The notes under the pieces: model-generated | Seen by the model: only the letters and a program-made list of their open reading frames with translations | What the model was told of the DNA's origin: nothing | Database searches by the model: none | Program-made: the position numbers and the translations under genes | Virus record (IMG/VR): IMGVR_UViG_3300006867_000025 | Span: 1-40,732 of that record | Direction: 5' to 3' (one strand) | From: a virus | Lineage: Duplodnaviria; Caudoviricetes | DNA length: 40,732 nucleotides | Part shown: positions 11,355-28,057 of the stretch, one piece after another | How positions within the stretch are numbered: position 1 is the first letter of the stretch | How the letters are laid out: every line of letters begins with the position of its first letter

Positions 11355-11386
11355 CCTCACCCCCGGCATGTCAGCTTAATAATTAA

Positions 11387-11407
11387 TATATAGGCTGTCC
11401 CTATATA
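11387..11407. promoter_or_regulatory. Operator-like palindrome TATATAGG-N5-CCTATATA
   Basis: 8-5-8 inverted repeat overlapping the -10 box of the putative RNAP-gene promoter; same architecture as 14171-14191. Confidence 0.6.
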
Positions 11408-11430
11408 GGTTCTTGCGATACGGGTGTCAA
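11402..11430 (-). promoter_or_regulatory. Putative sigma70 promoter for the RNAP gene
   Basis: TTGACA (11430-11425), 17-bp spacer, TATATA (11407-11402); back-to-back with a + strand TTGACA at 11433-11438. Confidence 0.55.
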
Positions 11431-11447
11431 CATTGACATGCCCTAAC

Positions 11448-11465
11448 GTGTCACATATGTGACAC
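11448..11465. promoter_or_regulatory. Perfect 18-bp palindrome GTGTCACATATGTGACAC
   Basis: Seen directly, in the divergent RNAP/repressor intergenic region. Confidence 0.6.
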
Positions 11466-11480
11466 ATAGGGGCCCCTCTA

Positions 11481-11499
11481 ACTGTCTACGCTGGTGTCA
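11481..11499 (-). promoter_or_regulatory. Dispersed element TGACACCAGCGTAGACAGT, copy 3
   Basis: Exact 19-bp match to 8123-8141. Confidence 0.5.
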
Positions 11500-11648
11500 T
11501 GAAACACCCAAATCTGTAGGGTTTTTTAGGTTTTTTGATTTTTTGCAACAGTTATGTGTACAAAATGTCATGTTTGTGTAAACTCTTATAGAGTATCTCT
11601 ACATATAGGGATATCTACTAAAGACAGACAGGACAATGCGGGGATTGA

Positions 11649-11966
11649 ATGTCAGACAATACACGGCCTAAAAATACAAGGGCCGACCTAGGGAAGCGGG
11701 TGGACTTTGGTAGAACTTTGAAGTCACTTAGGGAGGCTGCTCAACTTACACAACATGACATGGCAAAGCTGGTGGGGCAAAAGTACTTCACCATGATCAG
11801 CCAGATCGAGAATGGCAGGGTTCGAGTGCCACCTGATGACACCGAACTTTGGGCTAGGGTGCTAGGCGTAGACACCCAGGCTTTCGCTAAGGAGTGTGTC
11901 CGTCACTACGAAACGGATGACTACTTCAAAGCGATCTATGGCAAGAACGCTAAGAAAGAGCTATGA
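11649..11966 (+). CDS. XRE-family HTH repressor
   Basis: FGRTLKSLREAAQLTQHDMAKLVG...ISQIENGR; divergent from RNAP; ATGA overlap with the integrase. Confidence 0.85.
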   Translation: MSDNTRPKNTRADLGKRVDFGRTLKSLREAAQLTQHDMAKLVGQKYFTMISQIENGRVRVPPDDTELWARVLGVDTQAFAKECVRHYETDDYFKAIYGKNAKKEL

Positions 11967-13024
11967 AGGTTTACAGCGACCCTCGAGGTCGCGAGGGCTA
12001 CTGGCGCGTTAAGCTCGAGAACGGCAAGTTCAAAACCCTCCAAGCCAAAACCCATGACCAGGCCTGCCAGGCTGCTAGAGCCCTTGTCGCGTCCCTAGAG
12101 GCGCCTGAGAGTCCATGGCTACATCTGGTCAACCGACACATCCATCGGCGCGAGGAAGGCTCTCCTGAGCTCCTGGCGAAGAAGAAGTGGACCAATTCGA
12201 AGTACTGCCTTCGAGCCTTTGCTCGAGACATTGCGGCCATTGCGTCCCCAGCTCGGGTGACCATGGCGCACTTTCTTCAGTACTGGGACAGCCTCACCAG
12301 ACATCAGCAAGACAACCTCAGACCTGAGCTCAATCGTTTTGTGAAGTGGGCAATGCTGTCAGAGCTCTTGGCTCTTCCTTCGAATCCGATACCGCTGCTC
12401 GATAAGAAGGCTCTGCCGATCAAGCAGAGGCGTCGATTGACGATGCCTATGTTGATGAAGGTGATGTCTGTTGCTGAGGAACGTGGGTATGAAGGTCTGG
12501 CACAGGCGTGTCGGCTATCTCTCATCACTACGCTTCGCCGGGGAGACCTGGCGGCGCTTAAGTGGGACGACATCCAGGACGGAGCTCTGTGTGTAACCGT
12601 CTCGAAGAGCGTGGCGTCTCGGGGTGAGGTAGAGGCCACCAGGCTGCGGTGGCTGCTGGCAGATCATCCTAAGCTTCTCGAGGTGCTCAAGGAGTCTCGA
12701 AGACAGGCGATGATGAACAGGGACTGCCCATTCGTGCTCAGTCACTTTGGGGCGAACAGGAGCGGCAAGGAACACCCATGCCAAATGACCCCTGACATGA
12801 TCTCTAAGCAGTTCACAGAATGTGTACGAATTGTGGACCCGAAGCCTGGTCAGCCGACGTTCCATGAGATCAGGTCACTGAGCGCAGCGCTGCTCGAGCA
12901 AGGCGGAGCTCCAGGAGACATGATCAGCAAAATCATGGCTCACACTGACCACGCAACAACGGAGTTGTATCTACACGGACACAAGCGGAATTTCTTCGAT
13001 GTCACCTACAGCGTTACAGCATAG
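11963..13024 (+). CDS. int: Tyrosine integrase (lambda Int-like)
   Basis: Catalytic R in TTLRRGDL, PTFHEIRSLSA (H-x-x-R), MAHT...TELY. Confidence 0.92.
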   Translation: MKVYSDPRGREGYWRVKLENGKFKTLQAKTHDQACQAARALVASLEAPESPWLHLVNRHIHRREEGSPELLAKKKWTNSKYCLRAFARDIAAIASPARVTMAHFLQYWDSLTRHQQDNLRPELNRFVKWAMLSELLALPSNPIPLLDKKALPIKQRRRLTMPMLMKVMSVAEERGYEGLAQACRLSLITTLRRGDLAALKWDDIQDGALCVTVSKSVASRGEVEATRLRWLLADHPKLLEVLKESRRQAMMNRDCPFVLSHFGANRSGKEHPCQMTPDMISKQFTECVRIVDPKPGQPTFHEIRSLSAALLEQGGAPGDMISKIMAHTDHATTELYLHGHKRNFFDVTYSVTA

Positions 13025-13039
13025 ACGCGGTTGTACTCA

Positions 13040-13056
13040 CTACCTTGCCAAGGTAG
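13040..13056 (+). other. Candidate attP core: stand-alone tRNA-Gly anticodon arm CTACC-TTGCCAA-GGTAG
   Basis: 13041-13055 is identical to 13214-13228; begins 16 bp after the int stop; 7-bp centre flanked by an inverted repeat. Confidence 0.55.
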
Positions 13057-13186
13057 CAGGTACACAAGTTGCCTTGAAACCCTTGCAGGTAGGGGCTTGC
13101 TGAGAAGAGATTTTGAGTTTGTGTGCGGTACACACTGTGTACACAAGCGGGGCCGAATTTGTGTAACTACAGTGTGTCCCTATTAC

Positions 13187-13262
13187 GCGGGAATAGCTCA
13201 GTTGGTAGAGCGGTACCTTGCCAAGGTACAGGTCGCCGGTTCGAACCCGGTTTCCCGCTCCA
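13187..13262 (+). tRNA. tRNA-Gly (GCC), complete with encoded CCA
   Basis: GCGGGAA/TTCCCGC acceptor stem, AGCTCAGTTGGTAGAGC D-arm, GTACC-TTGCCAA-GGTAC anticodon arm, GGTTCGAACC T-arm, U73 discriminator. Confidence 0.97.
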
Positions 13263-13286
13263 TAAAAAAGGGGGCCGTAGCCCCCT
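13263..13286 (-). terminator. Intrinsic terminator ending leftward transcription before the tRNA
   Basis: AGGGGGC-TACG-GCCCCCT followed by a T run on the - strand. Confidence 0.8.
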
Positions 13287-13482
13287 AACACTCCTGGACG
13301 AGTTCTTTCTTTAGTAGCGCTGTGTGCGCCTTCACCGACGCAGTGATGTAGCGTGGGATAGGTTTACGCCCTGCCTTCCAGGACGCGTAGCTGCCGGTGT
13401 AATCAACAGCCAATAACCGGGCACACTTGAGCGGCCCTCCTGCGAGCTCCTCGAGCTCCTTAAGTTGGTCAACATCAGTCAT
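13285..13482 (-). CDS. Small HTH/Cro-like protein
   Basis: GGPLKCARLLAV....YASWKAGRKPIP resembles a Cro-type HTH. Confidence 0.55.
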   Translation of the reverse strand: MTDVDQLKELEELAGGPLKCARLLAVDYTGSYASWKAGRKPIPRYITASVKAHTALLKKELVQEC

Positions 13483-13688
13483 GAGTAAGCTCTGTTGTGG
13501 AGGATGTTGAGTGCGGTGTTGAGGTCTTTGTCCGACTCAATGTGGAAAGTGTCCCCGACTCGACGACCATCAACTTCAATCGTGATCGAGAACGAGTGCG
13601 CCCCGTAGCCTGGCATGTAACTAATCCAGGCGTCCTGATACTGGGCTGTTCGCAGCAACGTGCCGCTCATTGGACCAAAGTTCTGCAT
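13479..13688 (-). CDS. Hypothetical protein
   Basis: GGAG RBS; ATGA overlap with the next gene. Confidence 0.6.
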   Translation of the reverse strand: MQNFGPMSGTLLRTAQYQDAWISYMPGYGAHSFSITIEVDGRRVGDTFHIESDKDLNTALNILHNRAYS

Positions 13689-17286: not shown

Positions 17287-17538
17287 TTAGTCAGCCCAGA
17301 CAGCAGCTGCGATAGTCTGGACCAGGGGGTCGTGACCGGATACGTCCGTGGGCGTTTCCGTCACGTTGCCTTCCTCGTCCGTGGTGCTGGTCATCCTGTT
17401 CAGGTGAACCACACGCTGGGAGGTGTGGGGCAGCTGATCGTCGTCCGGGTCATCGAACACGTCGGTGTAGACCACCATGAGGCGGGTGTCCTCGTACACT
17501 TCCACACGCTGAACAGTCGTCGTCTTAGTGATTGCCAT
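17287..17538 (-). CDS. Small tail fibre-associated protein
   Basis: Directly follows the S74-capped fibre; DVSGHDPLVQTIAAAVW; AAGGAG RBS. Confidence 0.65.
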   Translation of the reverse strand: MAITKTTTVQRVEVYEDTRLMVVYTDVFDDPDDDQLPHTSQRVVHLNRMTSTTDEEGNVTETPTDVSGHDPLVQTIAAAVWAD

Positions 17539-20500
17539 CTTCAAGCTCCTTTAGCTTTACTTTCAAACTATCCACCTCAGCAGACAGCTCCTTAATCGCC
17601 TCGATAGCGAGGCCCATCATTTGCCCATAGCGAACGGCCAGGAACTTCTCGCCGTTCTCGCTCTTGCCTACCTCTGCTGATTCATAGATGACCTCGGGCA
17701 GGACTTCTTGCACTTGCTGCGCGATAACACCAGTAGAACGTGAGCCGTCCTTCTTGTAGTTGAACGTCACCCCGTCCAGGCGCTTAACCTTACCCAGGGC
17801 ATCAGTGATCGGCTCGATGTTCTCCTTCAGGCGAATATCAGAAGCAGACCCGTAAGCCGTGACATTCCCTTCCGCGATGATGTTGCCGTTTGTGGCTAAC
17901 TCAATGGCGTAGTTGCTCGCCGTACCTTGCCCTGACGTACTGGAGTTTAGACCCACATAGAACGGGTTGTATCCTGAGCTAGTTAGGTCTTGTCCCACGA
18001 ACAAACGGATAGCTTGCCCAGACGAGCGAACGTCAAAGATGGACCCGTCTCCGCTTGGGTTTAAGGCAGTCCGTAGGGTGATCCCCGCTCCAGAGGCGTT
18101 TGAGTTGGAGTTGTTCTCAAAGAGGACGTCGCCCCGGCCAACGTTAAAGGTCGTAGTGCCGCCTGATATATTATGGTTCCCGCCATTTACCGTCAGCGTT
18201 CTTGCTGAATTGATAACGTCGGTACCATTTACCTGATAGCCAGCAGTGGCATTAGCAACACCACCATGGGTAACACTAAATCGGCGTGCTGGTGTGCTAG
18301 TCCAGGCCGCAAAACAGTAGGTTGAATCCGCACCTATGGCGCCCCATCCGACGGAGTCAGTAGTACGCTCAAGGGTTAGCTGGATACTTGCGCTTGCTGC
18401 CGCGAAGTTTGATGCGTAGCTTAGGTTCTGGCCGCCGCTAGCCCCCTCAACAGATATGACGCCAGAGGAGATGGTGCCGGTGAACTGCACCGACTCGTCA
18501 GGGTTTATCGTGATCGGCTCGCGCCAAGTGCCGTTCTCTCGTACCGCGAGGACCATCTTTGCTGAGCGGTTAGCTGATACTGAGAAGTCCTCTGTTGCTT
18601 GCGTCCTAATATAAGAGCCAGCAACGTTGTTAGCCGGGGCGAAGTAAAGGTTCGCGGTGTTGCCGGTTGTGGCATTAGAGTTGCGAATGTAGAAGTTTGT
18701 CGTAGTCGCGTGACTTGACGTAAAAAACGCTGCGTCATCGTTAGTCGTTGCGCTAGTAATTGCCCCAGAGGATATGGTGCCGATATTGGTCAGGTTGCGG
18801 CTAGCGTCAATGATCTTAGTCGTTCCTATCTCAAAGGAACCGTCACCCCTAAACCGTGCAATCGCGTTTGATCCGTATTCTGCTTGGCCGCCCGATGCAG
18901 AATAGCCAATTACAAAAGCATCAAAACCACCGTTGTACTGCATACCCGCAAACCACTCCTTGCCAGAGTAGCTCACGTCTTCGTAGAAGGTGCCTATCCC
19001 TCGGCCCTCATAGCCGATCATTTGTATTTGAGTGGTAGTCGCGGGCGCTCCTGCTGTATCACTTGCTTCAATCGTTAGAGTGGTCCCGGTCTGATTGCCG
19101 CCTATCGTTGCTCCGGTTGCGGTTAGGTTTCCACTGGTAGTAATAGCGCCCGATGTAAATGTGCCTGCGTTTATTAATCCAGCCGCAGTGAGGTAAAGGC
19201 GCTGACCAGAAACATTACCTGTCGGATAGAAATAAATTGTATTTGAGTTAGCCGCAATGGTTGGCTTACCGTCGGTGTAGGCACCCCCCCAACTCAAATT
19301 GTAGCCACTGCCTACATGCAAACTATTTGATGTCGTAATTAGTCCGCTCGCAGTGATCGTACCAATGGCGCTGAGGTTGCGGCTGGCGTCGATGACTGTG
19401 GTCGTTCCGACAACGTAGCCTCCGGTGCTTGCAACCTGCCCGGTGTCCCCATTCAGAAAGACGGTAGCGCTACCGTTTGCGGCGACGTACATACCCCAGC
19501 CAGCAGAACCTACTGAGCTTAGGTAGGTCGCATCCCCCTGCTTCGCATACCCAATGCCGTACATGCTGCTCAGCGTGTCTTCGGCAGGGTTGTAGCTGCT
19601 TCCGATTGTGTAGATTGGATTGGATTTGGCTTTGTTGTTGCCGATGTTGTTGTAACCACCTTCAAGATGTCCGCTTTGATGCGTACTTCTTATGAGCGTC
19701 GCACCAGAACCAAGCGTTATGTCTCCGGTAGTCGTAATGTTTGCGGGGGTCAGGTCACGGGCGCTAGAGATCACCTCTGTGCCGTTGATCTTAATACCAA
19801 GGCCGCTCTGGAGATTGAGGTCCGACCGTAATTCAACCTCCGCATAAGGCGTTCCAAGATAAAGTTTCTGTGCGCTATGATCGCGCCAGATAATATTTGT
19901 TATTGCATCAGTACTGTCAGAAACCACAAAGTCGACATCATCAGCCACAACAACTGTTGCGGTTAGATATCCAGATGAGTTGGCTATTCGCGAACCACCA
20001 GCATATAGCTGGTTGCCATAAACATTTCCATCAACATTTAGATTTCCCGCCGCTACAGAATCAATATTGCCATCATTGCTAACGTGAACACCGCCGTCAT
20101 CAGTGATGATCATTCGTAGAGTTGGGCCGCCCTCGCTGTCAGTAGTATAGAAGCCTAATCCAGCGTCTTCAAAAGAGGTTTCACCAGAGCGAGTGTCAAT
20201 GGATTTAATTGCGGCATTTACACCGTTTGTTAAGGCTCCTGAACTGTTTTCAGCGCCTACCACTCCGAATTCTATTCCAGAGTAGACATCTCCTTGGCCT
20301 GTGTTGGATTCTGTTGCGCTTAAAATTCTAAGAATATTTGGAGAAGAATCTGCGGTTCCAGCAGTGCTAGTAATAGCACCTGCGAAGGTTGCGGTATTAT
20401 CGCCGTCCAGCCTTAACGCTGTCGTTACGTTCGATCCATCATAAGTTTGGAATGACAGAGAATAGTTGTTGACTAGCCCCTCAACGATACGAGCGTCGCC

Positions 20501-23500
20501 GTTTGCCCAATCCAACATCCCGCCCGAAGGCAGATCAAATTCGGTTCCATAAACTCTCCCAGAGCTAGTGATAGCCCCAGAGGAGATGGTGCCGATGCTC
20601 GTCAGGTTGCGGCTGGAGTCGATGATCTGAGTCGCGCCAATCTTTATTCCGTCTTCAGCGCGCAGGGTGCCATCAACAAAGAGCCTTTCGTTATAGGTAG
20701 TCGCGTTATCCGAGATCGTTACATACCCATCATCCGTTATCAGCATTTTCGGCTGCTGGACGTCGGTGTGTGCTCCGCTTCGCATCATGAAGTAAAGCCG
20801 ACCATTACCAGAGTTGTCGTTTCTAAGAACGATCCTAGAGCTTGCGGAGCCGCCCCCGTCTGCTCGCATAAATATGGACGACATTTGGTCCGCACTTGTG
20901 GTGCTGTTGCCGTTATACAGCACCAGCGTATCCCAGTCCTGCTCAGTCCAGCTTGGCGTATCTGAATATGAGTCAGACCTATCGTGCTGGGTCTTAATTT
21001 TTCCGCCACCAGAGATAGAGCCGGTAGCAGTGATGTTCGCCGGGGTAAGGTCACGGGAGCTGGAGATCACCTCCGTCCCGTTGATCTTGATGCCCTTGCC
21101 CGAATCCATATCAAGACCGTTCTCGTCGATATGGAAAATGTTAGTCAGATCAACGCTTACACCGTCGGTCACGCCGGACTTAAGCTCAAAGTACATGGTC
21201 GCGCCGGTAGAGGAATCGGTGTTGACCTCGATCCGTGCGGCGTTGCCGTTCTGCTCAGGGATGCCGTCGGCATGGTTAAAGGTGACGTTGGCGTTACCTT
21301 TGCTGTCATTGACGGTAAGGGCTACGCCGCCAGAGCCTTCCCCTGACACGATATTGTCCGAGCTGCGGAACTTGCCGGTGGTTTTGTAGTCCCCGGTGCC
21401 GCCGGTCTTACTGGTCAAGCCGTCAAAAGAAAGACTCGTGAGATAGCCCGCCGACGCATGATTGCCCCAGCCATAAGCCGTGCCCCAATTACTTACGTCC
21501 GTGCTTGAGAAATCAGCGCTATTCCAGAACTTAGTCCACGTCGTGTCCCACGTTCCCCCGGTCCTGCGTCGTGCGTAAAGGTCAACGCGGTTCGCAGCGC
21601 CCCCGTAGGCTCCGACCCACTGTTGAGGCTGGCTTCCGTCGTTGATGTCAAGCATCCACGCATAGTCATCAGGCGCGTTGGTAGGCGCAGAGCTACCCCA
21701 CGCGTAGAAGCCATTGCCGGGACTGTTCGCTGTTCCCGACGCAATGTCGTCGGTGCTATCTAAGATCGTTCGATCAATAGAGGACAGGTCCGCTGTGGTA
21801 AGAATCCGTTCTCCGTTCCACTGTAGCTTGTAGGACGTATTATTTGGGATGAAATTTAAATGCTGGCTAGCGTCATGCCATATCTGCCAGCTTGCCGAGC
21901 CGCTTCTAGTAAACGTAAACAGGGTGCGGTTGCCGTCAGTGTCAGCACTGATGTCGTATCCGTTTGGTTCAAACTTTATCCCCTGCTTAACGTCTAAGTT
22001 GCCGCCTATATCTACGTCTTTGTTCTGATACAGCTCCAACGCAATATCGGAACTATTATCTCCCGGCGAGAAGATCAGGCTGTCATCACCATTTGAGTCC
22101 AGCCACATTTCATACTGGCCGCCGGTAGTCTTGATCGTTATCCCAGCGTCGCGGTCGTTGGTGTTTTCAATCAGAAGGTCATGACGGTATCCGCCGTCAT
22201 AGGAATTCCGTAAGTGGAGAAGCTCGCCCCCAGCAGTAGTCCGATTTATTTGTACCGGATGGCTAAAGTCAAACTCGTCACTCGTTCCATCCCATAGGAT
22301 GGAAGCGTCCGTCGATGCGTTGACTGCATCCTGAATCGTGATGCCTGCCCCGTTCGCAGAGGCAGACGTATCCCCAGCCCCGTAATTTAGGGTGATGTTC
22401 TTGTCCTCAACGTCCAACGTGGCAGTGTTGAGCGTGGTGGTCGTCCCGTTGACCGTAAGGTTTCCAGCGATGACGACGTTACCGCTAGAGTCTTTCCCCT
22501 GGAAGTTGCTAGTTACCCACCCAGTTGTTGCTGAGGTTGATACGCCGTCCGAGACGTTGCCGTTTGAGTCGACCGTGAAGCCTGCCCCTGAAGTGGTGAG
22601 GTTGATCGAACGTGCTTCAGTGGTCGAGGGGATACCGCTAGCCGCTAAGCCCGACCCGCCGTAGGAGACCTGCATGCGGAGGTAGTGCGTGCCGGTCGCT
22701 AGAGACGCTGACACGTTACCGTTTAGGACGTTACCGTCATCGACTGCACCGCCAGGCTGCAGAGAAGCGAAGTACAGGGTGCCGCCACCAAACTCAGAGC
22801 CTAGGTATACGGTTTGCTTCTGCACATAGTACTGAGAGGTGGAAGCCGAGCTGCTGTCCGTCTTATTAAACGTGACAGCACCGAAGGTGCTCCAGGTCGA
22901 AGCGTCCGTGCTCTTTTGGATCGTGACCGTAATGCTGGTTGCGACCTGCCCGTACGCGTTGGCTTCCGAAGAGCCGCTTGCGAACAGATAGTTTAGCGGG
23001 TAGTCGAAGTCGACCGTGATCGTCTGCGTGGAGCTCAGCTGGATGGTCGCGTAGTCAGTAGCGCCCGTGAGCTCGTCGGACACAGAAGAGACTAGAGAGC
23101 CCGTAGAAGCAGCGACCTGAGTCGAAGGAAGCCCAAGAAGACCATCCGTGCTGTCGAAGAGCTTCTGCCCAGTCGTACTGTAGAGGGCGAAGTTGGTCAT
23201 GATGACCTTACCGGCCCGAGTCACCCGGAAGGGAGCGTTCGCGCCGCTTGCCCCACCGTTAGCGTCGAAGTCAGCGCCTGCCCAGAAGGCAAAGTTGTCG
23301 GCAGCACGGCCACTCATAACAGCAGCAGTTGAGCCAGAGCCTGCTTTAACAAACTCATCAACGGTCACGTTACCGTCGACCGATAACGTAGTGCCATCAA
23401 AAGAGAGCTTATCTTTTAGGCTGAAGTTGCCACTGCTGTCGAGATAGAAGCCGGTGTTGGTGTTGTTGTGGGTGCCAGTGCCTTGATAGAGCTTGCTAGA

Positions 23501-26500
23501 CGTAATGATGGTTCCACCTACTGAACCCCCACTGATCGTTCCAGCGTCGGCGTTAATGTCCGCTAGACTAGAGACGTTGATCTTTCCAGCCGTGACTGCA
23601 TTAGCTGCGATCTGGCTTGCGGTGATCGTGCCGTCCACGATCAGGTCGCCGTCAATCTTCTGCGGCAGACCGCCAGCAGGGACTTTATAAAGGGCGCGGA
23701 CCTCAATCGCCGTTAGGGCGCGGTTGTAAGCGCGGACTTCCGTGAGCTTCCCTATAAATACTGAGGCGGCGGTGTTGATGCTGGCTTCAGTGTTGCAGCC
23801 GATAACCACGGGTCGCGAAGAATCGACGGGGGTATAAGACTCCGTGCCGATAAGCTCCCCGTCTAGATACCCGGAGATGGTTCCGTTCCCGTCCTCGCTT
23901 AGACAGAAATGGTGCCACTCATTGGTGGTAACGGTGCCCATTGACTCCGTTCCAGGCTCACCGTAGAGAGTCAGGGTCTGTGAAGTACCGGACTGATCAA
24001 TAATCAGCGCCCATCCATCAGAGGCGTCCCGCCCTATGATTCTGGCTTGACTTTCGCCCGTCGTGGTCTCTGATTTGAACCAGATAGACCACGCAAACCC
24101 ATTAGCTCCCTCTAAGGCGTCCGCGTCTGTGTCATTGAGAAGGGTCCACCCACTTCCTGACGCATTGACCACGGCGTTCCCTGACGGGCTGTCAGTGCTA
24201 AGGGTCGGCGCAGACCCGGAATGAATGCCCGTCTTCCCGGACACCATCTCTTGAAGCTCTTCGTCTCCGTCGCCATCGGTATCTGCTATGGAGTTGCAGG
24301 GCCAATAATAAGTCAAGCCGTCTACCGGGAAGGCGAGATTGATCGCTACGTTTGCGATCTGGCCGTCCGAATCGGTAAGAGTTGCGCCGCTGCTTAGCGT
24401 GAAACTCGCTGCGGTAATGTCACCTGAAACGGTTAGGTCCGTGCCGTCGAAAGATAGCTTGTCCTTCAGAGAGAACTGAGCGCTGTCGTCTAAGTAGAAG
24501 CCAGTATTCGTATTGTTAAACGTGCCGGTACCCAGGTAAATCTTGTCACTGCCGATGGTCAGGCCGCCGATTTCTCCAGAGGTCGCCGTTACTGCCCCCC
24601 GGAATGTGCCGTTCCCCGCCTCAAACGTGCCGTCCGTGGTGAGCTTCCAGCCAGCGCTTCCTGCGCTGTAGTTGGTCGACTGTAGGGTGTCCGCAATCTT
24701 CGCTATGTCGACCGCGTTGTCCTCGATCTGTGGCGTATCTACAGTATCTAGGTCCGCCAAAGCTCCGGTGTTATAGCTAGCGACCTCCTGCCAGGCAGAG
24801 CCGTTGTACCGGAAGAACAGCTGGGTGTCGGTCTGGTACCACAGGTCGCCGGTGCCTTCAGGCGTAGGCGTAGCGGAGCTCGCGGCGTAGAAGGTGGTGA
24901 CCTTACCGTCAGCAGTCGCCTGTGCCGTAGCAGCATCGCTGATAGCAGAGGCAATGCCCGAGTCTCGAGCAGCAACCCAGTCAGTCCCATTGAAGCGATA
25001 AAGCTTGTTACTGTCGTTGGTGTCGATCCAGAGGTCGCCTTCCGAAGAGGAAGCTGCTGCGGGCTCACCGTCCTGATAGAAAGTGACGATCTTACCGTCA
25101 GCGGTAGATTGCGCCGTCGCAGCGTTTGCTAGCGCGTCGGCGATACCGGCGTCTCGAGCTGAGACCCAATCCGTGCCGTTGTAGCGATAGAGCTTGTTGT
25201 CGTCGTTTGTGTCGAACCATAGATCGCCAGTAGAAGATGACGCATCAGCTGGCTCATCGTCCTGATAGAACGTGACAATCTTGCCGTCTGCAGTCGATTG
25301 AGCCGTAGCTGCGCTGGAGATAGCCGACGCGATTCCTGCGTCTCGTACTGAGTCCCAGCTGGTACCGTTGAAGCGGTAGAGTTTGTTGTTGTCGTTCGTA
25401 TCGATCCAAAGATCACCAGTTGAGGAAGACGCCGCTGCTGGCTCGTCGTCCTGGTAAAAAGTGACTACCTTTCCGTCAGCAGTAGATTGAGCTCCAGCTG
25501 CTGCGCTAATAGCAGCTGCAATGCCGCTGTCGCGCGCAGAAACCCAATCTGTGCCGTTGTAGCGATACAGTTTGTTGTTGTCGTTCGTATCGAACCACAA
25601 GTCACCAGTCGAAGACGACGCATCAGCTGGCTCATCGTCCTGGTAGAAGGTCACGATCTTGCCGTCAGCCGTAGACTGCGCGGTAGACGCAGCACTGATT
25701 GCCGAGGCAATTCCAGAGTCTCGTACAGAGTCCCAGGACGTGCCGTTGTAGCGGTAAAGCTTGTTGCTGTCGTTAGTGTCTATCCAAAGATCGCCAGTCG
25801 ATGAGGAGGCATCTGCTGGCTCAGCGTCCTGGAAGAACGTGACTACCTTTCCGTCAGCAGTAGCCTGAGCTCCCGCAGCGTCGGTGATAGCGGTCGCAAT
25901 CCGGGTATCAGCACGGTCGACCCAGGCGCCTCCACTACGGAGGTACATGCGGTAGCCATCGTCAGTATCGATCCAGATATCACCGTCGTTGTAGGTTCCG
26001 CCGGTAGGCTCATCTGCTTGCTGATAGATATTGTTGGCGGTGGCGCCTTCCTCAATCCCCCCTAGCTTGGTGCCCGTAAGGGTGCCGACCGTAATAGTGT
26101 CTGTTGCGAAGTTGGAGGACATCAGCGTGCCCGCAGAGTCCGTAATGAAATAACGAACTCGAACGGCGTAGGTCACGTTGTCCCGTTCAATGGGGACTTC
26201 GACCTGGTTAATGTTCTCCGTATCGAAGACCACCTGGCTGTTGTACTGGTCGGTACCGTTGATGCCCCACTCAACATCGACGTACTGGGCTTGCTCTGGA
26301 ATGTTGCTGAAGGGAACGGTAAGCGTGAGCGCGGTAGAGCCGTCTGCTCGAGTACGCGTGGTGGAGCTCAGCGTGCCAATGACTGGCGTGATCGGGGCAG
26401 CGTTGACCACTTCCTCTTGCCAGCTGAGACCCTCTGGCTCAGTACCTCGAGCATCGTTCCAGGTGTAGACCGAGCTGTCGTATTCCTTCAGCTGTAGGTT

Positions 26501-28057
26501 CACGTTCATCGAGTTCAGGTCGATAGCGACCTGCATGACCCGAAAGTACTTCCCGCTGTACCCGGCGCTGTCATAGGTCAGCGAGACCACATCGCCAGGC
26601 ACTAGACCAAAGCACCGGCTACCAAAGGTACCGGCCACCGTGAGGTTCGAGCGGCTATCGCGGACTAGGAACTCTGCCGTGTCCTGAGCCTGGTAGTAGT
26701 CCGTGCAGCCCTTGATAGTGAAGGTCTTGTGTAGCTTCTCGCCCTGGTCCTCAGTGAGATAGGTGTCGTAGAGCCCGTCGTCCTCATTGCTATCGAGGCT
26801 AGGCCAAGATACCTGGTCTGTTTTGTGTTGTTTGTTGGCATTGATGAATTTAATCGTTGCACGGTTCATCCGCTGAGCGCGGTCGCCGTTGCTGATCTTC
26901 AGGCCGGTGATTATGTCGTCATCGCCAATGGTGAGTACCGGGCTAGCAACATCAGCCATATGGACGCGGTACTTGCCGTTGGCGTAGCTCAGGTTGCCTC
27001 GGAAGACGTTAAGGATTTCTTGGATGTTGTCCAGGAGCTCCTTCGAAGGATCAATAGCAATGTTAAGGCGGAAGCGTTTCTGCTGGGCTGTAGAGCCTTG
27101 CTCTCGTCGGTGATTCGGCAGGTCGTCATCTACTTGGACTGTGATCACCTCGCCCGATTCAGCATCGTAGAACTGATAGCTGCTGCCGGTATCGTTGGTC
27201 AGTCGTCCGGGTATATCAACCAACACATCACACTTATCAGCCGAATCAGCGATGCTCGGTAGATCAATGACACTGAGGGCCAGGCCGCGTCCGTACTCTG
27301 AGTTGGTCATGTAGTCCAGGAGCGCGAGCACCGGGTTGTCCGACCACTCCCAGGTGCTGGGGGTGTCGAAGCGGTGGCTCGAGGTGCCCAGCGTTGCGTC
27401 GTACACGCTCGAGGTCGAGTCCTTCCGGGGGTCATAGAGCTTACGGCCCTTGACCAGGTACTTGGTACTAGGCTCGCCCTGGTAAGCAGGCTTGTCGTTG
27501 TCGAGGTAGAGCCGCTCAATGGCATAGGCCACACCCTTACCCGTGAAGGTAGAGCCCCAGGCGCCGAAGTCACTGCTGAACGACGTACGCATCGCGCTGA
27601 AGTTCTGCCCAGCCGTTGGGCCTAGAGAAACAGAAGCAGCGAAGTGCCGGTCGTCGCCCTGCCCAAAGCGCGAGCTCTGGTAGCCCTCGTCGTCGATCAG
27701 GATGTTCTCGACCGACTGGATGGGGCCCGCACAGAGCGACACAGCACGGTACAGGAAGCGATTCGACTTGAGGTCACGGGTGCCATTGATGAGGTCACCA
27801 GTGCCCCTAGAGAACGTCGTAAAGCCCGTCTGGGTCATCCGGGTCTGCTTGTCGGAGACCTTCTTCCAGACCGTGGTGGAGCCAATGAGGGCCTTACCGT
27901 AGACCGTGTAAAGGCCACGGTTGCTGTCATGGCCGCTTATCTGTACTGCCTTCGCTTCTTGCGCTTGCTTCTTAGCCTGCGCTTCCATCTTGCGTTGTTG
28001 GTAGTAGACGCCGGCAGATGCGGCGACGGCGATGACTGCTGCGATAAGAGCCCACAT
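17525..28057 (-). CDS. Giant tail tip/host-specificity protein fused to fibre modules, a LamG domain and a C-terminal peptidase S74 chaperone (3510 aa)
   Basis: N-terminal VKGRKLYDPR..WEWSDNPVLALLDYMTN.YGRG (gpJ-like tip); LamG WHHF...YLDG...EVRAYNRAL; C-terminal SDIRLKENI...GVIAQQVQEVLPE...VRYG plus coiled coil. Confidence 0.88.
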   Translation of the reverse strand: MWALIAAVIAVAASAGVYYQQRKMEAQAKKQAQEAKAVQISGHDSNRGLYTVYGKALIGSTTVWKKVSDKQTRMTQTGFTTFSRGTGDLINGTRDLKSNRFLYRAVSLCAGPIQSVENILIDDEGYQSSRFGQGDDRHFAASVSLGPTAGQNFSAMRTSFSSDFGAWGSTFTGKGVAYAIERLYLDNDKPAYQGEPSTKYLVKGRKLYDPRKDSTSSVYDATLGTSSHRFDTPSTWEWSDNPVLALLDYMTNSEYGRGLALSVIDLPSIADSADKCDVLVDIPGRLTNDTGSSYQFYDAESGEVITVQVDDDLPNHRREQGSTAQQKRFRLNIAIDPSKELLDNIQEILNVFRGNLSYANGKYRVHMADVASPVLTIGDDDIITGLKISNGDRAQRMNRATIKFINANKQHKTDQVSWPSLDSNEDDGLYDTYLTEDQGEKLHKTFTIKGCTDYYQAQDTAEFLVRDSRSNLTVAGTFGSRCFGLVPGDVVSLTYDSAGYSGKYFRVMQVAIDLNSMNVNLQLKEYDSSVYTWNDARGTEPEGLSWQEEVVNAAPITPVIGTLSSTTRTRADGSTALTLTVPFSNIPEQAQYVDVEWGINGTDQYNSQVVFDTENINQVEVPIERDNVTYAVRVRYFITDSAGTLMSSNFATDTITVGTLTGTKLGGIEEGATANNIYQQADEPTGGTYNDGDIWIDTDDGYRMYLRSGGAWVDRADTRIATAITDAAGAQATADGKVVTFFQDAEPADASSSTGDLWIDTNDSNKLYRYNGTSWDSVRDSGIASAISAASTAQSTADGKIVTFYQDDEPADASSSTGDLWFDTNDNNKLYRYNGTDWVSARDSGIAAAISAAAGAQSTADGKVVTFYQDDEPAAASSSTGDLWIDTNDNNKLYRFNGTSWDSVRDAGIASAISSAATAQSTADGKIVTFYQDDEPADASSSTGDLWFDTNDDNKLYRYNGTDWVSARDAGIADALANAATAQSTADGKIVTFYQDGEPAAASSSEGDLWIDTNDSNKLYRFNGTDWVAARDSGIASAISDAATAQATADGKVTTFYAASSATPTPEGTGDLWYQTDTQLFFRYNGSAWQEVASYNTGALADLDTVDTPQIEDNAVDIAKIADTLQSTNYSAGSAGWKLTTDGTFEAGNGTFRGAVTATSGEIGGLTIGSDKIYLGTGTFNNTNTGFYLDDSAQFSLKDKLSFDGTDLTVSGDITAASFTLSSGATLTDSDGQIANVAINLAFPVDGLTYYWPCNSIADTDGDGDEELQEMVSGKTGIHSGSAPTLSTDSPSGNAVVNASGSGWTLLNDTDADALEGANGFAWSIWFKSETTTGESQARIIGRDASDGWALIIDQSGTSQTLTLYGEPGTESMGTVTTNEWHHFCLSEDGNGTISGYLDGELIGTESYTPVDSSRPVVIGCNTEASINTAASVFIGKLTEVRAYNRALTAIEVRALYKVPAGGLPQKIDGDLIVDGTITASQIAANAVTAGKINVSSLADINADAGTISGGSVGGTIITSSKLYQGTGTHNNTNTGFYLDSSGNFSLKDKLSFDGTTLSVDGNVTVDEFVKAGSGSTAAVMSGRAADNFAFWAGADFDANGGASGANAPFRVTRAGKVIMTNFALYSTTGQKLFDSTDGLLGLPSTQVAASTGSLVSSVSDELTGATDYATIQLSSTQTITVDFDYPLNYLFASGSSEANAYGQVATSITVTIQKSTDASTWSTFGAVTFNKTDSSSASTSQYYVQKQTVYLGSEFGGGTLYFASLQPGGAVDDGNVLNGNVSASLATGTHYLRMQVSYGGSGLAASGIPSTTEARSINLTTSGAGFTVDSNGNVSDGVSTSATTGWVTSNFQGKDSSGNVVIAGNLTVNGTTTTLNTATLDVEDKNITLNYGAGDTSASANGAGITIQDAVNASTDASILWDGTSDEFDFSHPVQINRTTAGGELLHLRNSYDGGYRHDLLIENTNDRDAGITIKTTGGQYEMWLDSNGDDSLIFSPGDNSSDIALELYQNKDVDIGGNLDVKQGIKFEPNGYDISADTDGNRTLFTFTRSGSASWQIWHDASQHLNFIPNNTSYKLQWNGERILTTADLSSIDRTILDSTDDIASGTANSPGNGFYAWGSSAPTNAPDDYAWMLDINDGSQPQQWVGAYGGAANRVDLYARRRTGGTWDTTWTKFWNSADFSSTDVSNWGTAYGWGNHASAGYLTSLSFDGLTSKTGGTGDYKTTGKFRSSDNIVSGEGSGGVALTVNDSKGNANVTFNHADGIPEQNGNAARIEVNTDSSTGATMYFELKSGVTDGVSVDLTNIFHIDENGLDMDSGKGIKINGTEVISSSRDLTPANITATGSISGGGKIKTQHDRSDSYSDTPSWTEQDWDTLVLYNGNSTTSADQMSSIFMRADGGGSASSRIVLRNDNSGNGRLYFMMRSGAHTDVQQPKMLITDDGYVTISDNATTYNERLFVDGTLRAEDGIKIGATQIIDSSRNLTSIGTISSGAITSSGRVYGTEFDLPSGGMLDWANGDARIVEGLVNNYSLSFQTYDGSNVTTALRLDGDNTATFAGAITSTAGTADSSPNILRILSATESNTGQGDVYSGIEFGVVGAENSSGALTNGVNAAIKSIDTRSGETSFEDAGLGFYTTDSEGGPTLRMIITDDGGVHVSNDGNIDSVAAGNLNVDGNVYGNQLYAGGSRIANSSGYLTATVVVADDVDFVVSDSTDAITNIIWRDHSAQKLYLGTPYAEVELRSDLNLQSGLGIKINGTEVISSARDLTPANITTTGDITLGSGATLIRSTHQSGHLEGGYNNIGNNKAKSNPIYTIGSSYNPAEDTLSSMYGIGYAKQGDATYLSSVGSAGWGMYVAANGSATVFLNGDTGQVASTGGYVVGTTTVIDASRNLSAIGTITASGLITTSNSLHVGSGYNLSWGGAYTDGKPTIAANSNTIYFYPTGNVSGQRLYLTAAGLINAGTFTSGAITTSGNLTATGATIGGNQTGTTLTIEASDTAGAPATTTQIQMIGYEGRGIGTFYEDVSYSGKEWFAGMQYNGGFDAFVIGYSASGGQAEYGSNAIARFRGDGSFEIGTTKIIDASRNLTNIGTISSGAITSATTNDDAAFFTSSHATTTNFYIRNSNATTGNTANLYFAPANNVAGSYIRTQATEDFSVSANRSAKMVLAVRENGTWREPITINPDESVQFTGTISSGVISVEGASGGQNLSYASNFAAASASIQLTLERTTDSVGWGAIGADSTYCFAAWTSTPARRFSVTHGGVANATAGYQVNGTDVINSARTLTVNGGNHNISGGTTTFNVGRGDVLFENNSNSNASGAGITLRTALNPSGDGSIFDVRSSGQAIRLFVGQDLTSSGYNPFYVGLNSSTSGQGTASNYAIELATNGNIIAEGNVTAYGSASDIRLKENIEPITDALGKVKRLDGVTFNYKKDGSRSTGVIAQQVQEVLPEVIYESAEVGKSENGEKFLAVRYGQMMGLAIEAIKELSAEVDSLKVKLKELEDGNH
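24790..26040 (-). repeat. 63-aa (189-bp) tandem repeat in the tail protein: 5 near-identical and 2 divergent units
   Basis: ADGK(I/V)VTFYQDDEPADASSSTGDLW.DTND.NKLYRYNGT.W; ADG codons spaced 189 bp apart (25851, 25662, 25473, 25284, 25095, 24906). Confidence 0.9.

What the first reader, a model, noticed from the sequence alone, without database searches (positions are those of the whole stretch)
13025..13286. Duplicated anticodon arm plus a complete tRNA-Gly: possible 'cut and replace' tRNA integration system
Seen: 16 bp after the int stop is a hairpin CTACC-TTGCCAA-GGTAG whose inner 15 bp (13041-13055) are identical to the anticodon arm of a complete tRNA-Gly(GCC) 173 bp downstream (13214-13228), in the same orientation. 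The intervening DNA has reiterated TGTGTA/TACACA boxes. Known: many tyrosine integrases cross over in the 7-nt anticodon loop, and attP normally carries the tRNA 3' portion to restore the gene. Inference: the isolated arm is the attP core. It has no 3' half, so integration would break the host tRNA, while the intact phage tRNA lands about 130 bp downstream, possibly under the host promoter. Alternatives: the structure records an aberrant excision that captured a host tRNA and its upstream DNA, or the two cores allow a 173-bp excisable switch.
Basis: partly seen in the sequence, partly recalled or inferred. Interest (0 to 1): 0.78.

Follow-up and report, generated by a model that had tools for sequence, protein, structure and literature searches.

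The report
Phage breaks, then replaces, host tRNA-Gly
This aquatic phage has, right after its integrase gene, a short copy of the anticodon arm of a glycine tRNA and a complete glycine tRNA gene 135 bases further on, so it likely splits its host's only such gene when it integrates and would drop the spare into the host's tRNA operon, a likely new layout of a strategy already published for other phages.

Summary
Observation confirmed. The window is a temperate siphovirus with a T7-like RNA polymerase and a lambda-family integrase. The isolated arm is very likely the attP core. It and the whole tRNA-Gly(GCC) are kept in all relatives that extend far enough (16 of 16 viral, 13 of 13 metagenome loci of this layout). 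Arm-like motifs sit at fixed distances from the isolated arm in 19 of 19 attPs, not from the tRNA. A sister phage carries an ordinary loop-plus-3'-half attP at the same place, with no whole tRNA. The spare is identical to a chromosomal gene that is single-copy in 152 of 160 genomes of a candidate gammaproteobacterial host family, where it ends a Glu-Gly operon. Modelled integration breaks the host gene and puts the spare last in that operon. One relative has the attP inverted plus a one-base loop change that keeps the spare on that side. No real attL/attR junction and no 173-bp deletion was found, so the crossover and promoter capture stay inferred. The strategy is published (tRNA-dependent lysogeny 2024; pelagiphages 2018; Sinorhizobium 2024), and this scan noted it before on other DNA (13 notes).

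The parts
11649..11966 (+). HTH (Xre/CI-like) regulator, probable repressor, overlapping the integrase start
   Evidence: Pfam HTH_31 1.6e-11, PHROG transcriptional regulator/repressor; 38% homolog in the G419 prophage
11963..13024 (+). Lambda-family tyrosine integrase, 353 aa; R192, K215, H301, R304, H327, Y336 invariant
   Evidence: PF00589; invariant columns in 20 homologs; profile hits lambda Int in the PDB at 7.6e-22. Role of these residues is established knowledge.
13006..13011 (+). Left-arm motif CTACAG at -39 from the loop, inside the last int codons; likely an arm-type or accessory site
   Evidence: Motif or a one-base variant at -39 in 19 of 19 attPs; also at -39 in the inverted, non-coding copy of L109
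13032..13064 (+). Predicted attP core: extended dyad around the anticodon-arm copy 13040-13056; 7-nt loop 13045-13051 is the likely overlap region
   Evidence: loop 20 bp after the int stop in 19 of 19; position matches the canonical attP of L187/L189
13128..13143 (+). Right-arm repeats (GTACA at +83 and +94 from the loop); likely integrase arm-type sites
   Evidence: Same offsets in 19 of 19 although the spacer is only 22-46% alike (minimum-median)
13167..13172 (+). Second CTACAG motif at +122, outer end of the right arm
   Evidence: +122/+123 in 16 of 19, +132 in 3 of 19
13187..13262 (+). Complete tRNA-Gly(GCC) with CCA, the predicted replacement gene; loop 13218-13224
   Evidence: ARAGORN; 76/76 identical to chromosomal genes of G242, G138, G176, G251 and in 26 of 40 loci fetched from the G251 family
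13269..13286 (-). Terminator-like hairpin for the leftward genes, between the tRNA and the small ORF
13285..13482 (-). Conserved 65-aa HTH-like ORF next to attP in all three layouts; possibly an excisionase or Cro-like protein (untested)
   Evidence: no Pfam/PHROG hit; ESM Atlas HTH_3 cluster at 0.90 with 24% of members, a lead only

Best explanation
The isolated anticodon arm after the integrase gene is likely the attP core, where the integrase would cross over in the 7-base loop of the host's tRNA-Gly(GCC) gene and split it, and the complete phage tRNA-Gly is likely the replacement that keeps the lysogen alive. Shown: intact lambda-family integrase; core with no tRNA 3' half; arm-like motifs phased to the core; a spare identical to a host gene. 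Inferred: the host is a member of the G251 or G242 family (order of Spongiibacter in GTDB); the crossover lies in the loop; the spare is needed. Less certain (about 0.55): the spare has no promoter of its own and in the prophage is read from the host Glu-Gly operon promoter, starting about 204 nt after tRNA-Glu instead of about 31, while int ends up at the other end of the prophage, facing the leftover 3' half.
For: (1) Both copies are kept: 16 of 17 viral contigs with the core have the tRNA (the 17th ends 42 bp after the stop), and 13 of 13 metagenome loci of this layout. (2) GTACA at +15/+83/+94 and the -39 motif are fixed to the upstream loop in 19 of 19, while distances to the tRNA loop take 4 values and the stop-to-loop distance is always 20 bp. 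(3) Sister phage L187/L189 (integrase 44-46%, same flanking small ORF and lysozyme) has loop + whole 3' half 25 bp after the stop and no whole tRNA in 1.3 kb. (4) The wider family targets anticodon loops: 55 of 80 chromosomal loci have a convergent tRNA within 2.5 kb, and tRNA homology ends at or just past the loop in L188 and L371. (5) The spare is 76/76 identical to host genes; the gene is single in 152 of 160 matching genomes of the G251 family and follows tRNA-Glu. (6) A 45-kb prophage of the same phage group (TerL 62%, capsid 54%) lies in G419 of that family. (7) Modelled attL gives Glu plus the spare only, and attR gives no tRNA. (8) No + strand terminator and no sigma-70 promoter match between core and tRNA. 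(9) In L109/L185 the attP is the reverse complement of the window type (0 of 200 shuffles reach the score in 7 of 7 comparisons), yet the loop's centre base is changed so the spare again lies downstream of the host 5' half.
Against: No real junction was found. No integrase above 35% identity among the 80 best GTDB loci; none in 202 + 7 candidate-host genomes. The attL pattern gave 0 hits; all 17 flank-pattern hits are unrecombined. No loose ends at the core in 6 DNA runs (24 loose-end rows not shown). The host is inferred, and other genomes of the order with a near-identical gene carry two copies (G042, G209 at 2 mismatches; Spongiibacter, Halioglobus at 4), so the spare may not be essential. 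The G419 prophage uses a different integrase and an ordinary tRNA-Pro site. The promoter scan is crude, and the Fionnbharth spare has its own promoter (PMC10865867). The inverted layout rests on 2 near-identical contigs. The tree leaves the three layouts in an open fork, so the order of events is unknown.
Confidence: 0.8

Rival explanations
1. The site is as described, but the spare is not needed for lysogeny: the true host has two tRNA-Gly(GCC) genes, and the phage tRNA serves lytic translation or counters tRNA-cutting defences.
For: Two-copy genomes exist in the order and in 8 of 160 genomes of the G251 family (at least one is a contig-end overlap). GGC is the commonest Gly codon in 10 large phage genes, 327 of 707.
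Against: The tRNA is on the strand of HTH and int, opposite to all lytic genes. It is the only tRNA and matches the core's anticodon. It is absent from the sister locus that keeps the 3' half. All genomes with the exact 76-mer that I examined showed one copy.
Confidence: 0.09
2. The crossover is in the complete phage tRNA, so integration leaves two intact genes, and the upstream arm is an accessory site or leftover.
For: The whole tRNA is identical to host genes, and modelled junctions give an intact tRNA on both sides.
Against: Motif offsets from the tRNA loop vary (-83, -86, -90, -101) but are invariant from the upstream loop. There is no conserved non-coding arm right of the tRNA; in 12 of 19 the neighbouring ORF runs straight into it. 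The canonical sister attP sits at the upstream position.
Confidence: 0.05
3. The region is a relic of an aberrant excision that captured a host tRNA with its upstream DNA, without a present role.
For: The tRNA is plainly host-derived, and its 3' end abuts or interrupts the end of the small ORF.
Against: Host upstream DNA is tRNA-Glu plus a short spacer, not seen in the phage. Core, arms and tRNA are conserved while the spacer has diverged to about 30-40%. The stem of the spare changes by paired substitutions among relatives.
Confidence: 0.03
4. The two loops are a switch: the integrase deletes the 173 bp between them, removing the right arm and the tRNA.
For: Direct repeats of the overlap sequence; the spare is a perfect attB mimic. 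PMC10865867 speculates that phage tRNAs can act as attB for tandem integration.
Against: No deletion form among 17 viral contigs with the left-flank pattern, in 13 metagenome loci of this layout, or as a joint in the 4 runs laid across both loops (contigs drop rare variants). The product would lose both arm and tRNA. About 75-80 bp between the last arm site and the second loop is probably too short for a lambda-type synapse (inference).
Confidence: 0.03

Closest known systems
tRNA-dependent lysogeny of actinobacteriophages (Fionnbharth K4, cluster L, Cain, Gaia, Mollymur; Guerrero-Bustamante and Hatfull 2024, PMC10865867)
   Same: Lambda-like tyrosine integrase; 8-17 bp core over the anticodon region; no rebuilt tRNA; phage tRNA of the same isotype, on the strand opposite to lytic genes; canonical sisters without a spare (Boilgate, Ximenita; here L187/L189). 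The spare also overlaps the 3' end of an opposite-strand gene (Fionnbharth gene 37; here 12 of 19 relatives).
   Different: Likely gammaproteobacterial host; tRNA-Gly(GCC), not among the positive cases in their Table 2. The spare is identical to a host gene, whereas Fionnbharth's is not close to its host's. It is 135 bp behind the core, in sense, with no promoter match, whereas Fionnbharth's has a tested promoter. Nothing here is tested by experiment.
Pelagiphages HTVC019P and HTVC025P of SAR11 (bioRxiv 10.1101/410191)
   Same: Aquatic temperate phages with T7-like RNA polymerase; core in the middle of a host tRNA gene, gene split, phage tRNA presumed to replace it; junctions mapped.
   Different: Podoviruses of Alphaproteobacteria; tRNA-Cys and tRNA-Leu. 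The HTVC019P spare lies far from attP. The position of the HTVC025P spare was not in the passages I saw (Fig. S2 not seen).
Lo5R7ANS-like prophages of Sinorhizobium meliloti AK21 and RU11/001 (PMC11476347)
   Same: Integration in the centre of a tRNA gene, replaced by a prophage tRNA of the same anticodon.
   Different: tRNA-Leu(UAG); spare only 80.6% like the host gene; position relative to attL not stated in the passages seen.
Canonical anticodon-loop (site A) integration with a restoring tRNA fragment (Islander, PMC4383910); lambda Int family
   Same: Crossover subsite and integrase family; the outgroup prophages and L187/L189 behave this way.
   Different: The window's attP lacks the restoring 3' fragment. 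Islander rejects internal tDNA fragments, so such elements could be missed or mis-mapped (inference).

Membership tests
tRNA-dependent lysogeny | Phage-encoded tyrosine integrase | tested here: met
   PF00589, intact catalytic residues, lambda Int hits
tRNA-dependent lysogeny | attB overlaps a host tRNA gene | tested here: inconclusive
   15-bp match to the anticodon arm of chromosomal tRNA-Gly(GCC) genes and family habit, but no real junction found
tRNA-dependent lysogeny | Short common core; no tRNA rebuilt at attL or attR | tested here: met
   12-15 bp shared with the cognate tRNA in 19 of 19; ARAGORN finds no gene at either modelled junction, also at relaxed score. Holds if the upstream copy is the core.
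tRNA-dependent lysogeny | Phage encodes a whole tRNA of the same isotype | tested here: met
   tRNA-Gly(GCC) 13187-13262, identical to host genes
tRNA-dependent lysogeny | Disrupted host tRNA is single-copy and essential | tested here: inconclusive
   Single match in 152 of 160 matching genomes of 202 searched in the G251 family, but many are incomplete, the host is inferred, and other lineages have two copies
tRNA-dependent lysogeny | Phage tRNA required for viable lysogens (clear plaques when deleted) | not testable with these tools
   Needs a cultured host or plasmid assay
Canonical gene-restoring tRNA integration (site A) | attP carries the tRNA 3' or 5' fragment joined to the core | tested here: not met
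   No 3' half follows the upstream loop; the sister L187/L189 does meet it
Lambda-type attP | Dyad core flanked by arm-type repeats at fixed spacing | tested here: met
   Sequence level only: dyad 13032-13064; motifs at -39, +83, +94 in 19 of 19. Binding not tested.

The most novel reading that the evidence does not exclude
The spare tRNA is a promoterless cassette that integration itself plugs into the host Glu-Gly tRNA operon, so only correctly oriented integration yields a living lysogen. Because the Gly(GCC) loop is a palindrome but for its centre base, a single base sets the orientation of integration, and relatives with opposite attP orientations have both been selected to leave the spare on the host-promoter side.
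Probability: 0.4. Interest if true: 0.62.

Novelty: new variant of a known kind. Interest (0 to 1): 0.42.

Why it matters
It would extend tRNA-dependent lysogeny to a gammaproteobacterial phage group and to tRNA-Gly(GCC). One clade holds a natural series (canonical attP, spare-dependent attP, inverted spare-dependent attP) that bears on the open question in PMC10865867 of how the strategy evolves. The whole system is a 1.3-kb int-attP-tRNA cassette, so tRNA dependence, host-promoter capture and the one-base orientation rule can be tested on plasmids. It is a known strategy, unproven here for lack of a lysogen, and this scan has seen the layout several times elsewhere.

Tried and rejected
Search for real attL/attR: GTDB scan (270 stretches, 215 relatives, best 80 kept, best 35% identity); metagenome scan (416 relatives, best 80 kept; the 16 loci at 44% or more are all free-phage forms); attL pattern in viral contigs, 0 hits; left- and right-flank patterns, the same 17 unrecombined contigs; integrase alignment against 7 genomes of the G242 family (0) and 202 of the G251 family (2 hits, both 29-30% canonical outgroup types). 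Extra 13-mer matches in G242-family genomes proved to be coding sequence. Reads: 4 DNA runs over 12700-13600 gave no joints and no listed loose end at the core. Two more DNA runs over 11400-13190 gave none; one of them (X15) has a contig gap at 13066-13136 without a loose end. Two RNA runs laid nothing there, so there is no expression evidence either way. Contexts for the intermediate integrases P0012 and P0015 were not found; P0010, P0013, P0014 and P0016 were not tried. The canonical sister's right arm does not align to the window-type attP clearly above shuffles, so its arm sites are unresolved. RNA folding of 13040-13190 gave z -1.95, not pursued. No close cultured phage: integrase best E 1e-11, RNAP about 27-28%, TerL about 42%. 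A conserved TACAG hexamer before the tRNA was considered as a -10 box and set aside: no -35 match and the same motif lies left of the core. Assembly artefact rejected.

Full report
Observation. The 15-mer at 13041-13055 recurs exactly at 13214-13228 on the same strand, 173 bp on. It occurs nowhere else in the window with up to one mismatch, against 0.01 expected. The second copy is the anticodon arm of the window's only tRNA, tRNA-Gly(GCC) 13187-13262. The first sits in a longer dyad, 13032-13064, 20 bp from the integrase stop to the loop.

The element. The window is a virus record, 98% complete by CheckV. It has HK97-type head and siphovirus tail genes plus a T7-like RNA polymerase, primase-helicase, DNA polymerase and exonuclease, all on the minus strand (35 ORFs scanned). 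Only an HTH regulator, the integrase and the tRNA are on the plus strand. The integrase keeps the catalytic residues in 20 of 20 aligned homologs, and its profile matches lambda Int. Cultured phages are distant.

Conservation. Patterns for left flank + core and for core + right flank each hit the same 17 viral contigs. Sixteen carry the whole tRNA behind the core and one ends 42 bp after the stop. Of 16 metagenome loci with integrase at 44% or more, 13 have this layout, 1 an inverted layout and 2 a canonical one; several are the same contigs as the viral set. I aligned 19 attPs (the window plus 18 loci; duplicates L094, L106, L173, L175-L177, L179, L181, L183, L184, L186 and truncated L095 left out). 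Stop-to-loop is 20 bp in 19 of 19. GTACA lies at +15, +83 and +94 and a CTACAG-type motif at -39 from the upstream loop in 19 of 19, while the spacer between them is 22-46% alike (minimum-median) with no indel. The distance from loop to tRNA varies, 128-146. Such fixed phasing is what a lambda-type intasome needs (established knowledge), and it points to the upstream copy as the crossover site.

Natural controls. L187/L189 (integrase 44-46%, same small ORF and lysozyme to the right) has the loop plus the whole tRNA-Gly 3' half 25 bp after the stop, and no whole tRNA in the 1.3 kb that follows. Outgroup prophages are canonical: 55 of 80 chromosomal loci have a tRNA within 2.5 kb downstream of int, all convergent (41 Pro-GGG, 6 Ala-GGC, 2 Gly-GCC, 6 others). 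In two free forms the tRNA match stops at or just past the loop. L109/L185 (44%) has the attP in reverse complement: with the core masked, 0 of 200 shuffles reach the score in 7 of 7 comparisons, and the motifs fall at the same offsets. Its loop differs at the centre base, which is the only asymmetric base of this loop, so it still reads in the sense of the whole tRNA that follows. In both orientations the spare would end up directly behind the broken host 5' half. A tree of 48 chosen integrases puts the three layouts in one clade (100/100) but in an open fork, so the order of events is not resolved. That the canonical form is ancestral is an inference from the outgroups.

Host. Sisters of the clade are mostly integrases of Gammaproteobacteria (Halieaceae, Spongiibacteraceae, Azotimanducaceae; one sits in a Flavobacteriales MAG). 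Among 301 genomes sampled from the order of Spongiibacter, 108 match the tRNA pattern and at least 12 listed ones have the phage's unusual stem. The phage gene is 76/76 identical to genes of G242, G138, G176 and G251, and to 26 of 40 loci fetched from 37 of the 43 matching genomes of the G251 family. There it is the last gene of a tRNA-Glu/tRNA-Gly operon. In that family 160 of 202 genomes match a stem-independent pattern, 152 once and 8 twice. Against this, G042 and G209 (2 mismatches) and Spongiibacter and Halioglobus (4) have two copies. One genome of the G251 family, G419, holds a 45-kb prophage of the same phage group (TerL 62%, capsid 54%, primase 53%, HTH 38%), integrated canonically at tRNA-Pro with another integrase. 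This supports both the temperate life style and the host family, but says nothing direct about the Gly site.

Mechanism. Modelled on G251, crossover at the upstream loop gives an attL with tRNA-Glu and the spare only (starting about 204 nt after Glu, against about 31) and an attR with no tRNA. Integration separates int from the tRNA, so read-through from the HTH-int unit cannot supply it in the prophage. The scan finds no sigma-70 match and no plus-strand terminator between core and tRNA. I therefore think the spare is read from the host operon promoter (about 0.55). The core assignment plus replacement role I put at 0.8. No junction, no deletion form and no RNA evidence was found.

Comparison with what is known. 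PMC10865867 (parts 1-5 of 8 read: abstract to discussion; methods and supplements not read) defines tRNA-dependent lysogeny, proves it in mycobacteriophages and expects it elsewhere. bioRxiv 10.1101/410191 (passages; its Fig. S2 not seen, and it may show an adjacent spare) reports split-and-replace for pelagiphages HTVC019P and HTVC025P. PMC11476347 (passages) reports it for two Sinorhizobium prophages; PMC12429752 (passages) points to that work. PMC4383910 (passages) gives the canonical rule. The strategy is therefore known, also in Proteobacteria. Searches found no paper with the host-promoter-capture layout, and the listings of searches showed none on this phage group; the library lacks most subscription journals. 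The scan's own notes hold 13 findings of this kind in other genomes (8 shown), two claiming real junctions with the spare behind the host promoter; I did not test them, and none concerns this integrase or its relatives.

Verdict. A real, conserved feature. It works like tRNA-dependent lysogeny and is a probable member: no defining feature failed, two are inconclusive and one cannot be tested here. The variant traits are a host-identical spare placed to complete a host operon, and an inverted relative with a compensating loop base. Interest 0.42.

Noticed in passing
whole window; G419:C7 about 264450-309370 (L373, L374, L378): A temperate phage group joining an HK97-type siphovirus virion module to a T7-like RNA polymerase and replication module, with no close cultured relative. 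An intact-looking 45-kb prophage of the group sits at tRNA-Pro(TGG) in G419 with an unrelated integrase.
   Followed up: partly
window 13285-13482 - and relatives: The small HTH-like ORF stops before the tRNA in the window, but in 12 of 19 relatives it reads 65 nt antisense into the tRNA gene, as Fionnbharth gene 37 does.
   Followed up: partly
L109:4054-4335, L185:6062-6343: attP inverted relative to int with the loop's centre base changed. The Ala(GGC) loops used by outgroup integrases (L013, L188, L190, L371) are also palindromic except for the centre base.
   Followed up: partly
window 11370-11648: Divergent intergenic region between RNAP and HTH with several TGTCA/TGACA inverted repeats (about 11425-11470), likely operators of the lysis-lysogeny switch (seen).
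   Followed up: no
window 17525-28057 -: 3510-aa tail fibre/tip protein with a C-terminal Peptidase_S74 chaperone domain.
   Followed up: no
L288 and L293 (G002, Halioglobus MAG): Each of the two chromosomal tRNA-Gly(GCC) genes is preceded, 108 bp upstream, by a copy of its own 5' half; one is followed by tandem repeats of the 3' end. No integrase link checked.
   Followed up: no
L313 (G251) and L353, just after tRNA-Gly: Sequence after the host tRNA-Gly resembles island-junction DNA, suggesting that other elements use this gene canonically.
   Followed up: no
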